Below are positions 27,700-27,982 of a stretch of DNA of 32,000 bases, piece by piece. The DNA comes from Candidatus Saccharimonadota bacterium (GTDB lineage: Bacteria; Bacteroidota; Bacteroidia; Cytophagales; Amoebophilaceae). The stretch lies in NCBI RefSeq assembly GCF_964030745.1, contig NZ_OZ034918.1, positions 390,001-422,000 of the forward strand. Direction: 5' to 3'. Every line of letters starts with the position of its first letter. Position 1 is the first letter of the stretch. Position numbers and translations under genes: made by a program. The notes below the pieces were generated by a model. It searched no databases. It saw only the letters and a list, made by a program, of their open reading frames with translations, and was not told where the DNA came from.

Positions 27700-27982
27700 G
27701 ACAGTATGCTATTTATATAATTTTATTATAACAAACAGAAGTGCTTCAGCTTGGAACAGCTAAATAAATACATTCTTCTAATCGGGGTTATAGTACCACC
27801 ATTGGTTCAACCGCTCCTATCCAAAACCATGCTGAAAAACGGGCACTTTAAGCACCAGGGAAACAATCGATCATAACTGCAAAAGCACTCCTGAATGAAA
27901 AATATAGTACAAAACTTTTAGAAATATCATAACGCCATAAATAAGTTTCTTGCTTAGGTATAACCCACAGCCGTGGGTGGGG
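27700..27982 (-). ncRNA. Candidate bridge (guide) RNA in the IS110 leader
   Basis: Non-coding 283 nt between the IS end and the transposase ATG. It contains gctgaaaaac (27831-27840), identical to core plus right flank of the MITE target, and gggaaa (27858-27863), complementary to the left flank. These are separated by a hairpin that pairs with G-U wobbles only on the minus-strand transcript (ggugc-uuaaa-gugcc). It also has cttctaa (27775-27781), equal to the IS terminus 26343-26349, and ccacc (27796-27800), complementary to the other terminus. Not folded computationally. Confidence 0.4.

What the first reader, a model, noticed from the sequence alone, without database searches (positions are those of the whole stretch)
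27700..27982. IS110 leader carries guide-like copies of its own target site and its own ends, laid out like a bridge RNA
Directly seen in the sequence:
- The 283-nt leader upstream of the transposase contains gctgaaaaac (27831-27840). This is a 10/10 match to the GC junction dinucleotide plus right flank of the MITE target in uninterrupted copy 1 (5493-5502), and 9/9 to the actual flank at 27983-27991.
- 17 nt further on is gggaaa (27858-27863), the complement of the left flank tttccc (26336-26341).
- A transcript from the transposase strand would therefore pair with opposite DNA strands on the two sides of the GC core.
- The spacer between the two segments forms a hairpin only on that transcript, because it needs G-U pairs (ggugc/gugcc).
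- The same layout recurs about 55 nt downstream in the RNA for the IS ends. cttctaa (27775-27781) equals core-C plus terminus at 26343-26349. ccacc (27796-27800) is complementary to the ggtgg inside the other terminus (27976-27980).

The order is target-like loop 5', donor-like loop 3'. This matches what is established for the IS621 bridge RNA (IS110 family). An exact 10-mer match in about 280 nt on either strand is expected by chance only at roughly the 10^-3 level. The 5-7-nt matches are individually weak. If confirmed, this would be a programmable RNA-guided recombinase from an intracellular Bacteroidota symbiont, with its natural target identified in the same window.
Basis: partly seen in the sequence, partly recalled or inferred. 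Interest (0 to 1): 0.88.

Follow-up and report, generated by a model that had tools for sequence, protein, structure and literature searches.

The report
Bridge RNA of a Cardinium IS110 element

Summary
The element is a 1641-bp IS110-family IS (26343-27985, minus strand) inserted in a MITE-like hairpin repeat, with an intact copy of the site at 5483-5505.

A covariance model built from 27 relatives, without the window, hits the window once. The hit is 27745-27890 (-), 74 bits, E 1.5e-18, and lies exactly in the leader. Comparative structure shows an outer stem enclosing two homologous internal loops.

- **GUUUUUCAG (27840-27832)** is the left target guide. **UUAGAAG (27781-27775)** is the left donor guide. 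At these alignment positions, the guide matches the left flank or the right IS end in over 40 related IS families.
- **The core is AG**, not GC.
- **GGUGG (27800-27796)** is not a guide. It is the base of a conserved hairpin with compensatory changes.
- **UUUCCC (27863-27858)** sits where relatives carry the right target guide, but 4 nt out of register (chance about 0.02). A second 99%-identical copy has an unrelated right flank.

In this ISPpu9/ISWpi13 clade the guide order within each loop is the reverse of IS621.

Verdict: a real bridge RNA and a new member of a known kind. Interest is moderate to low.

The parts
26343..27985 (-). Whole IS110-family element. It runs AG core (27985-27984), then LE, tnp and RE, then AG core (26344-26343). 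Length is 1641 bp counted with one core.
   Evidence: The empty site is seen in MITE copies. IS length matches relatives at 1590-1830 bp. A 99.2% identical copy, L162, begins exactly at the AG.
26356..27699 (-). Recombinase ORF of 447 aa, with DEDD residues D21, E68, D105 and D108. Thr335 lies at the position of IS621 Ser241.
   Evidence: Pfam PF01548 at 87 bits and PF02371 at 47 bits. NCBIfam NF033542 at 279 bits against a cutoff of 140. Aligned to IS621 chain 8wt6_A. Motif check.
27737..27892 (-). Bridge RNA, about 156 nt. An outer stem P1 (27892-27883 pairs with 27746-27737) encloses the target-binding and donor-binding arms.
   Evidence: CM R1, built without the window, hits 27745-27890 at 74.4 bits, E 1.5e-18, and is the only hit in 32 kb. 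P1 appears in the MFE and centroid structures. P1 has compensatory changes in relatives.
27832..27840 (-). Left target guide (LTG), (G)UUUUUCAG, ending in the AG core. It has the same sense as LT+core, so it pairs with the bottom strand.
   Evidence: 9/9 to MITE copy 1 and 8/9 to the actual flank. The same alignment position equals LT+AG in 8 multi-copy families whose ends were set by copy comparison, and in more than 40 families overall.
27840..27857 (-). Distal hairpin of the target-binding loop, UGGUGCUUAAAGUGCCCG. Its base is U.G, G-C, G-C, bulged U, G-C, C-G.
   Evidence: RNAalifold and pair counts give 100% paired, with C-G to U-A changes in 6 sequences.
27858..27867 (-). 5' side of the target-binding loop, AUUGUUUCCC, at the position of the right target guide in relatives. 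UUUCCC (27863-27858) is complementary to RT2-7 GGGAAA but 4 nt out of the family register.
   Evidence: Clade register is C(-3):core G with -4..-6 pairing RT1-3. Watson-Crick fraction is 0.56-0.61 against 0.25-0.28 shuffled, 0/1000. Chance of the window match is 0.017.
27868..27872 (-). 5' strand of the closing stem of the target-binding loop (GAUCG). It pairs with UGGUU at 27829-27825.
   Evidence: 95.9% of cells paired over 29 sequences, including G.U pairs that exist only on this strand.
27825..27829 (-). 3' strand of the closing stem of the target-binding loop (UGGUU).
27809..27817 (-). 5' strand of the closing stem of the donor-binding loop (GGAGCGGUU). It pairs with AGCUGUUCC at 27761-27753.
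   Evidence: Direct reading shows 9 pairs including G.U. Equivalent stems are present in relatives. They were not counted formally, because the alignment there is not in register.
27753..27761 (-). 3' strand of the closing stem of the donor-binding loop.
27783..27801 (-). Distal hairpin of the donor-binding loop, UGGUGGUACUAUAACCCCG.
   Evidence: Same motif as in the target loop. Compensatory variants in relatives are UGAUG/CCUCG, UAGUG/CCUG and UAAUG/CUUG.
27775..27782 (-). Left donor guide (LDG), AUUAGAAG. UUAGAAG equals the last 5 nt of the RE plus the AG core.
   Evidence: 7/8 to 26343-26350 CTTAGAAG. The guide covaries with the RE end across families: UUAGGAG, UCGAUAG, UUGAAAG, UCGGGAG, AGAGAAG and UGGAGAG.
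27984..27992 (-). Left target plus core in the flank (CTTTTTC + AG).
26335..26342 (-). Right target flank (CGGGAAAA).
26345..26356 (-). Right end (RE), 11 nt after the stop codon. It contains the conserved GTTTCTTAGA and the 9-bp arm AAGTTTCTT (26356-26348), which is an inverted repeat of AAGAAACTT in the LE (27951-27943).
   Evidence: The same GTTTCTT / AAGAAAC pair is seen in Wolbachia and Binatia relatives.
27963..27978 (-). LE-terminal hairpin ACCCAC-GGCU-GUGGGU, starting 6 nt inside the LE.
   Evidence: MFE and centroid structures. Relatives carry a GC-rich hairpin at the same place.
5483..5505 (-). Unoccupied target in MITE copy 1, TAAGTTTTTC-AG-CGGGAAAATCG. It is an imperfect hairpin (GTTTTTC / GAAAATC) with loop AGCGG. 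Copy 2 (5742-5764) has TTTTTTAG and copy 3 (10383-10405) has core AA.

Best explanation
The leader of this Cardinium IS110-family element encodes a bridge RNA of about 156 nt, homologous to the LE-encoded RNAs of the ISPpu9/ISWpi13 clade.

**Architecture.** An outer stem closes two homologous arms. In each arm a closing stem opens into an internal loop that carries a conserved distal hairpin with base UGGUG...CCCG. Immediately 3' of each hairpin lies an 8-9-nt guide ending in AG.

**Guides.**
[quoted passage not shown] - In relatives, the 5' side of the target loop pairs with core-G plus RT1-3 on the top strand.

**Mechanism.** The recombinase, bound to both loops, exchanges strands at the AG core. 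The element ends up flanked by AG with no duplication.

**Shown here:** homology of the RNA, its structure, LTG-LT and LDG-LD covariation, the AG core by homology, and the empty site.

**Inferred from IS621, ISEc21 and ISPpu9 work:** transcription, binding to the recombinase, the circle intermediate and the strand-exchange chemistry.
For: - **Protein family:**. The catalytic DEDD residues are present.
- **RNA homology:** a CM built from 27 relatives without the window gives one hit in the window, in the leader, on the tnp strand, full length, 74.4 bits, E 1.5e-18. The same model hits upstream of tnp in about 150 of 160 related loci.
- **Structure:** 88.7% of cells are paired against about 40% when partners are slid. 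There are 70 double-change cells against 31.7 in shuffles (0/500). G.U pairs are strand-specific.
- **LTG equals LT+AG** in 8 multi-copy families whose ends were defined by copy comparison alone, and in dozens of single-copy families.
- **LDG tracks the RE end:** the window has UUAGAAG with TTAGAAG, Wolbachia has UUAGGAG with TTAGGAG, and other families follow the same pattern.
- **Window matches:** LTG is 9/9 to intact MITE copy 1, and GTTTTTCAG occurs nowhere else in the window.
- **Second copy:** L162 is 99.2% identical and differs inside the bridge RNA only by one base in the LTG (C to U) and one inserted base in the donor-loop tail. The U allele fits MITE copy 2 (GTTTTTTAG) 9/9, and fits the inferred left flank of its own site (TTTCTTAG in a homologue) 7/8.
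- **Recent activity:** at least 3 intact copies at 99.5% or more aa identity in the source genome.
- **ISPpu9,** from the same cluster as ISWpi13 in Durrant's table, inserts experimentally at an AG in REP hairpins and needs AG at both ends (PMC12288879).
Against: - No expression data are available.
- Thermodynamic folding of the window sequence alone recovers only the outer stem (z -1.7 for the 160-nt core, -0.3 for the whole leader).
- The window's right-target segment is out of the family register, and the L162 copy has an unrelated right flank.
- No RNA segment covaries with the right donor.
- The donor-loop hairpin is shorter than in relatives, with a 12-nt gap against the model.
- Thr replaces the IS621 catalytic Ser, although it does so in 46 of 123 relatives, among them loci from the Wolbachia-like branch of the clade.
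- No Rfam family matches the region.
Confidence: 0.9

Rival explanations
1. The RNA is a true bridge-RNA homologue, but in this IS only the left halves are RNA-guided. UUUCCC/GGGAAA is then a coincidence, or a by-product of the palindromic MITE, and insertion is a 'half-match' event driven by the LTG plus the AG core.
For: - UUUCCC is 4 nt out of the register used by 27 of the 35 sites whose best complementary run is at least 5 nt.
- The chance of such a 6-mer is about 0.02.
- L162 keeps the identical loop but has right flank CATAGAAGG.
- In the clade the right target guide covers only core-G plus 3 nt.
- A 2026 preprint reports half-match recombination for bridge recombinases (10.64898/2026.08.31.748434, abstract only).
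Against: - The match lies exactly in the 10-nt loop where relatives carry the right target guide.
- The window has CCC where relatives have C-A-N, which could mark a lineage-specific shift.
- The MITE hairpin places the AG core 3-4 nt further from the 3' arm than in the Acidobacteria targets, the same offset as the register shift.
- The L162 site may itself be an off-target event.
Confidence: 0.5
2. The leader is only a structured 5' UTR that controls transposase translation, as described for ISPpu9 with its Asr9 antisense RNA. On this view the matches to flank and end have no guiding role.
For: The ISPpu9 5' UTR is reported to fold and inhibit translation, with an antisense sRNA (PMC12288879). 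The best promoter-like match in the region is antisense, at 27693-27721 (+), 10/12.
Against: A purely regulatory role does not explain why 8-nt segments at fixed positions change together with the flank and with the IS end across dozens of families, while the surrounding hairpins stay constant. The two roles are not exclusive.
Confidence: 0.04
3. The similarities are chance matches in an AT-rich genome.
For: The 5-7-nt matches are individually weak. ccacc/ggtgg is explained without any guide role.
Against: The CM hit has E 1.5e-18 from a model that never saw the window. The 9-mer is unique in the window outside the MITE. Covariation is seen across families.
Confidence: 0.01

Closest known systems
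ISWpi13 (Wolbachia) and ISPpu9 (Pseudomonas putida KT2440), IS110 group
   Same: - The recombinase is about 70% identical to ISWpi13-type proteins.
- ISWpi13, ISPpu9 and ISPsy35 share one cluster in Durrant 2024, and ISWpi13 is listed there with its bridge RNA in the LE.
- The long LE, short RE and AG at both junctions agree.
- The target is a hairpin repeat, REP for ISPpu9 and a MITE here (PMC12288879).
- The Wolbachia relatives match the same covariance model and show the same guide layout.
   Different: - The host is a Bacteroidota endosymbiont.
- LTG, LE terminus (CCCCCACCC against CATCGAAC) and LDG (UUAGAAG against UUAGGAG) all differ.
- The window has CCC instead of C-A-N before the target-loop hairpin.
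- The donor-loop hairpin is shorter.
- ISPpu9 itself was not aligned here.
IS621 bridge RNA (E. coli), the type system
   Same: - It is encoded in the LE upstream of a DEDD/Tnp recombinase.
- The target loop is 5' and the donor loop is 3'.
- L guides have the sense of the top strand and include the core, and R guides are complementary to the top strand.
- The long guide reads the flank next to the LE.
- It targets a repeated extragenic palindrome and makes no duplication.
   Different: - Protein similarity is only 28 bits.
- Inside each IS621 loop the L guide is 5' and the R guide 3' of the distal hairpin, as read directly in L161: AUCGGGCCU-hairpin-UGCGUAG (PMC11208160). Here the order is reversed.
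- The core is CT in IS621 and AG here.
- The IS621 RTG covers both core bases; here only the G is covered.
- IS621 has a right donor guide (RDG); none was found here.
- An outer stem closes both arms here, instead of a separate 5' stem-loop.
IS1111-type seekRNAs (ISEc11, ISKpn4, ISPa11)
   Same: The segment complementary to the top strand precedes the segment complementary to the bottom strand (PMC11187229), as in this clade. A subterminal inverted repeat is present, 9 bp here.
   Different: In IS1111 elements the RNA lies downstream of tnp in the RE. Here it lies upstream in the LE. The LE arm of the inverted repeat is 32 nt inside the end.

Membership tests
IS110-family bridge-RNA recombinase systems (general) | Recombinase with an N-terminal DEDD RuvC-like domain and a C-terminal Tnp domain | tested here: met
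   PF01548 at 87 bits and PF02371 at 47 bits. NF033542 'IS110 family RNA-guided transposase' at 279 bits against a cutoff of 140. D21, E68, D105 and D108 are present.
IS110-family bridge-RNA recombinase systems (general) | Conserved nucleophilic Ser in the Tnp domain (IS621 S241) | tested here: inconclusive
   The aligned residue is Thr335 (RITGEK). Among related loci it is Ser in 77 and Thr in 46, the Thr group including loci from the Wolbachia-like branch of the clade.
IS110-family bridge-RNA recombinase systems (general) | Site-specific insertion without target duplication, with the same core dinucleotide at both junctions | tested here: met
   The empty site TTTTTC-AG-CGGGAAAA is seen in MITE copy 1. 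AG(C) is at both junctions. AG is the only shared dinucleotide in relatives.
IS110-family bridge-RNA recombinase systems (general) | Structured ncRNA in the long non-coding end, with a target-binding loop and a donor-binding loop | tested here: met
   CM hit at 74.4 bits, E 1.5e-18. Consensus structure with covariation.
IS110-family bridge-RNA recombinase systems (general) | Left target guide equals LT+core and covaries with it | tested here: met
   Window 9/9 to the MITE consensus. Met in 8 families with independently defined ends and more than 40 families in all.
IS110-family bridge-RNA recombinase systems (general) | Left donor guide equals LD+core and covaries with it | tested here: met
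   UUAGAAG against TTAGAAG in the window. Six other guide/end pairs in relatives.
IS110-family bridge-RNA recombinase systems (general) | Right target guide complementary to core+RT | tested here: inconclusive
   Met in the clade. In the window the only match is 4 nt out of register, with chance about 0.02. L162 has an unrelated RT.
IS110-family bridge-RNA recombinase systems (general) | Right donor guide complementary to core+RD | tested here: not met
There is no diagonal of complementarity between either side of the donor loop and RD. Families with identical donor loops have different RD2-7.
IS110-family bridge-RNA recombinase systems (general) | RNA is transcribed, binds the recombinase and is required for recombination | not testable with these tools
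   Only a weak sigma-70-like match (ATGATA-18-TATATT, 27930-27901) lies just upstream of P1.
IS621-type bridge RNA layout | L guide 5' and R guide 3' of the distal hairpin in each loop | tested here: not met
   IS621 read directly gives LTG-hairpin-RTG. The window and all relatives give R side-hairpin-L guide.
IS621-type bridge RNA layout | CT core paired by both guides | tested here: not met
   The core is AG on the IS strand. The R side pairs only the G, followed by a conserved A.
IS1111 group | Guide RNA encoded downstream of tnp in a long RE | tested here: not met
   The RE is 11 nt long and the RNA lies in the 284-nt LE.
IS1111 group | Top-strand complement 5' of the bottom-strand complement in the RNA | tested here: met
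   compared with PMC11187229.
IS1111 group | Subterminal inverted repeats of 7-17 bp | tested here: inconclusive
   A 9-bp inverted repeat AAGAAACTT / AAGTTTCTT is present and recurs in relatives. The LE arm lies 32 nt inside the end.
Rfam families | Match to a curated RNA family | tested here: not met
   No hit at gathering score in the window, and none in the leader at E up to 10.

The most novel reading that the evidence does not exclude
The ISPpu9/ISWpi13/Cardinium clade may use a distinct bridge-RNA design that has not been described explicitly. Its features would be:

- It is LE-encoded, but its guide order is permuted (R side 5', L guide 3' of a conserved UGGUG/CCCG hairpin), as in IS1111 seekRNAs.
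- An outer stem closes both arms.
- The core is AG, which reads CT on the other strand.
- The right target guide covers only core-G plus about 3 nt.
- No RNA guide exists for the right donor. The LE terminus would then be read by the protein or through its terminal hairpin.

That would make it a three-guide bridge RNA, with specificity carried almost entirely by the two L guides. Strand exchange might then begin on the opposite strand compared with IS621.
Probability: 0.4. Interest if true: 0.55.

Novelty: new member of a known kind. Interest (0 to 1): 0.3.

Why it matters
The window gives a worked natural example of a bridge-RNA element in an obligate intracellular Bacteroidota symbiont, with the occupied and the empty target side by side. 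It also offers two LTG alleles (C/U) that match two alleles of the MITE target.

For the field, the useful part is comparative. About 150 loci show that a large LE-encoded clade has the within-loop guide order reversed relative to IS621, an AG core, a very short right target guide and no detectable right donor guide. The clade includes ISPpu9 and ISWpi13, and related copies sit on Enterobacteriaceae plasmids. This matters for anyone designing guides for orthologues from the IS621 template, or predicting IS110 targets in genomes.

It does not reveal a new kind of system.

Tried and rejected
- **Rfam:** gathering scan of the whole window and an E-value scan of 26200-28200 found nothing in the leader.
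- **Single-sequence folding:** it does not recover the two-loop structure, only the outer stem. The structure had to come from comparison.
- **Other copies in the source genome:** the exact-protein look-up returned only short Logan contigs without DNA, or nothing. One Logan contig from another sample (L162) did give a second copy, but without its left flank.
- **Left flank of L162:** I inferred it from a 78%-identical rve-family gene (L163). This is suggestive only.
- **Right donor guide:** I searched both sides of the donor loop against LD/RD, on both strands, in two family sets. No diagonal appeared.
- **The idea that UUGGUG pairs with RD (CAYY...):** rejected, because the motif is also in the target loop and shows hairpin-internal compensation.
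rejected by relatives in which only AG is shared.
- **ISPpu9 itself:** not fetched, because P. putida chromosomes are not in the annotated collections. The plasmid search only showed that the clade is widespread.
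Full report
**What is in the window.** A 447-aa ORF on the minus strand (26356-27699) is an IS110-family recombinase. Pfam gives DEDD_Tnp_IS110 at 87 bits and Transposase_20 at 47 bits. NCBIfam NF033542, 'IS110 family RNA-guided transposase', scores 279 bits against a cutoff of 140. The element interrupts a MITE-like repeat with intact copies at 5383-5584, 5642-5843 and 10283-10484. Comparison with copy 1 gives the empty site. On the IS strand it reads ...GTTTTTC-AG-CGGGAAAATCG.... 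The IS runs from 27985 to 26343 on the minus strand. It has a 284-nt non-coding left end (LE) upstream of the gene and an 11-nt right end (RE). AGC is present at both junctions.

**Check of the observation.** All five strings are at the stated coordinates. GTTTTTCAG occurs twice in both strands of the window: once in the leader and once in intact MITE copy 1. The short matches are weak on their own. A perfect 6-mer complement of the 10-nt loop that holds UUUCCC is present in 1.7% of random 14-mers of this window.

**Relatives.** The source is the Cardinium endosymbiont of Philonthus spinipes. That genome holds at least three intact copies that differ by 1-2 residues. The closest named element is ISWpi13 of Wolbachia, at about 70% aa identity. 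In the supplementary tables of Durrant et al. 2024, ISWpi13 clusters with ISPpu9 and ISPsy35 and is listed as 'LE / IS110', meaning a bridge RNA predicted in the left end. I collected 160 related loci from genomes and metagenomes. In eight multi-copy families I defined the IS ends by comparing copies, without reference to any guide.

**A homologous RNA.** Aligned leaders show two homologous modules:
- RRCCG, a 6-7-nt variable stretch, C-A-N, UGGUG[hairpin]CCCG, 8 nt ending in AG, then CAUGGUY.
- GCG, a variable stretch, CAUUGGUG[hairpin]YCCCG, 8 nt ending in AG, then AUUG.

A covariance model built from 27 relatives, with the window left out (A2, R1), finds one match in the 32-kb window at E up to 10. 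The match is 27745-27890 on the minus strand, full length, 74.4 bits, E 1.5e-18. The model also matches upstream of the recombinase gene in about 150 of the 160 loci. Rfam has nothing for this region.

**Structure.** RNAalifold and explicit pair counts on 29 diverse sequences support four helices:
- an outer stem (window 27892-27883 with 27746-27737);
- the closing stem of the first loop (27872-27868 with 27829-27825);
- the bases of the two distal hairpins, each with a bulged U.

Overall, 88.7% of cells are paired against about 40% when partners are slid. There are 70 double-change cells against 31.7 in shuffles, 0 of 500. Hairpin-base variants in further relatives are compensatory: UGAUG/CCUCG, UAGUG/CCUG and UAAUG/CUUG. 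Folding the window sequence alone recovers only the outer stem.

**The two L guides.** The 8 nt after the first hairpin equal the left flank plus AG in every family where the ends are known. Examples:

| Family | Guide | Left flank + core |
|---|---|---|
| Window | (G)UUUUUCAG | GTTTTTCAG (MITE) |
| Wolbachia | UCGUUUAG | TCGTTTAG |
| Binatia | UUGUUAG | TTGTTAG |
| Acidobacteria | CUUUCAG / CUGAAAG | AACCCTTTCAG / AACCCTGAAAG |
| Dehalococcoidia | GUACAAAG | GTACAAAG |
| Verrucomicrobia | GAGGAAG | matching left flank |

The 8 nt after the second hairpin equal the end of the RE plus AG. The window has UUAGAAG with TTAGAAG, Wolbachia has UUAGGAG, Dehalococcoidia have UCGAUAG, UUGAAAG and UCGGGAG, Verrucomicrobia have AGAGAAG, and cyanobacteria have UGGAGAG. 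Only AG is shared by both junctions in relatives, so the core is AG. ISPpu9 inserts experimentally at an AG in REP hairpins and needs AG at both ends (PMC12288879).

**The R side of the target loop.** Across 72 families, the nucleotides at -4, -5 and -6 from UGGUG are Watson-Crick complementary to RT1-3 in 56-61% of cases. Shuffling families gives 25-28%, with 0 of 1000 shuffles reaching the observed value. The conserved C at -3 faces the core G. Of the 35 sites whose best complementary run is at least 5 nt, 27 are in this register. The window is an exception. It has CCC where relatives have C-A-N, the canonical register does not pair, and UUUCCC matches RT2-7 at a shift of +4. A run that long at any shift occurs in about 2% of mismatched family pairings. 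The shift has the same size as the different position of the AG core in the loop of the MITE hairpin (GTTTTTC-AGCGG-GAAAATC) compared with the Acidobacteria targets (AACCC-TGAAA-GGGTT). This may or may not be meaningful.

**The R side of the donor loop.** It pairs with CCCC (27787-27784), is present in both loops of every relative, and shows compensatory change. It is not a guide. I found no segment on either side of the donor loop that covaries with the first 14 nt of the LE. Families with identical donor loops have different RD2-7, for example L066 against L097 and L109 against L019 and L100. What reads the right donor remains open. The LE starts with C, usually followed by A, and carries a terminal hairpin in all families (window 27978-27963).

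**A second copy of the same IS.** A Logan contig from another sample (L162) carries a 99.2% identical copy that starts exactly at the AG.
- Inside the bridge RNA it differs only by one base of the LTG (UUUUUCAG to UUUUUUAG) and one inserted base in the donor-loop tail.
- Its right flank is unrelated to the MITE. It is the middle of a decayed rve-family transposase gene.
- In a 78%-identical homologue the uninterrupted site reads CTATTTCTTAG|CATAGAAGG. That fits the U allele of the LTG at 7 of 8 positions and does not fit UUUCCC at all.
- The U allele also equals MITE copy 2 of the window (GTTTTTTAG) 9/9.

The left flank of L162 itself is not on the contig.

**Comparison with known systems.** I read IS621 directly in an E. 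coli genome. Its layout is LTG AUCGGGCCU, then the hairpin, then RTG UGCGUAG, with core CT, as stated in PMC11208160. In the present clade the order inside each loop is reversed and the core is AG. Siddiquee et al. report the order 'top-strand complement first' for IS1111 seekRNAs and the opposite order for the IS110-type ISEc21 (PMC11187229). So this clade combines the LE location of the IS110 group with the guide order of the IS1111 group. A 9-bp subterminal inverted repeat is also present. I found no paper in the library that describes the guide layout of the ISPpu9/ISWpi13 clade, but the search is limited.

**Mechanism, with the steps marked.**
- Shown: a conserved structured RNA gene on the transposase strand, two guides that track the left target and the left donor, the AG core, the empty site, and recent multiplication.
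- Inferred from IS621, ISEc21 and ISPpu9: the RNA is made from the leader. A weak promoter-like site ends at 27901, just upstream of the outer stem. The RNA binds recombinase dimers through its two arms, pairs with the MITE and with the RE-LE junction of the excised circle, and strand exchange at AG inserts the element.

**Verdict.** The corrections are core AG, one wrong guide, one uncertain guide, and a within-loop order opposite to IS621. The kind of system has been known since 2024, and the nearest named IS was already predicted to carry such an RNA. This is therefore a new member of a known kind. The comparative result on the clade's permuted, apparently three-guide design is the only part that might be new.

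Noticed in passing
L003:2108-2262, with the insertion point at L003:2227: The Wolbachia wCon IS (LTG UCGUUUAG) has inserted into the left donor guide region (CCUCG-UUUAG|GAG) of a second, 80%-related IS. Guides that have the sense of the target are themselves targets.
   Followed up: partly
L161:1588-1660 (E. coli ETEC-2264, IS621): A partial IS621 left end stops at its own LTG (AUCGGGCCU) and is followed by a complete IS621. This is the same self-targeting of a guide by another copy.
   Followed up: no
window 26695-26697 (codon of Thr335, RITGEK): The residue aligned with the IS621 catalytic Ser241 is Thr. In related loci it is Ser in 77 and Thr in 46, the Thr group including loci from the Wolbachia-like branch of the clade.
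   Followed up: partly
window 27693-27721 (+): The best sigma-70-like match of the region (TTTGCA-17-TATAAT, 10/12) points antisense into the leader from the start codon. This recalls the Asr9 antisense RNA of ISPpu9. It is a consensus match only.
   Followed up: no
window 27842-27856 (-) plus 27832-27841: The target-loop hairpin followed by the U-rich LTG (CGUUUUUCAG) scores as an intrinsic-terminator-like site. In this IS the guide sequence could attenuate its own transcript.
   Followed up: no
window 25902-26095 (+): A degenerate MITE copy in inverted orientation lies about 150 bp from the interrupted copy, a REPIN/BIME-like arrangement. It carries TTGTTCAGCGGGAAAA, a near-target on the other strand.
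   Followed up: no
L050:316-347 and L073:322-343: A Verrucomicrobia IS with LTG AUCAGGAG sits at the end of a tandem array of TCAGGAG heptamers, which are repeated copies of its own target.
   Followed up: no
L162:1643-1954 and L163:301-678: The second copy of the Cardinium-type IS lies inside a decayed rve_3 (integrase core) transposase gene at ...LFLS|IEGIEH.... The site TTTCTTAG|CATAGAAGG resembles the IS's own right end (GTTTCTTAGAAG).
   Followed up: partly
plasmid collection: Recombinases of this clade, at about 48-58% aa identity, occur on 279 plasmid records, including Citrobacter (61), Enterobacter (20) and Klebsiella (7).
   Followed up: no
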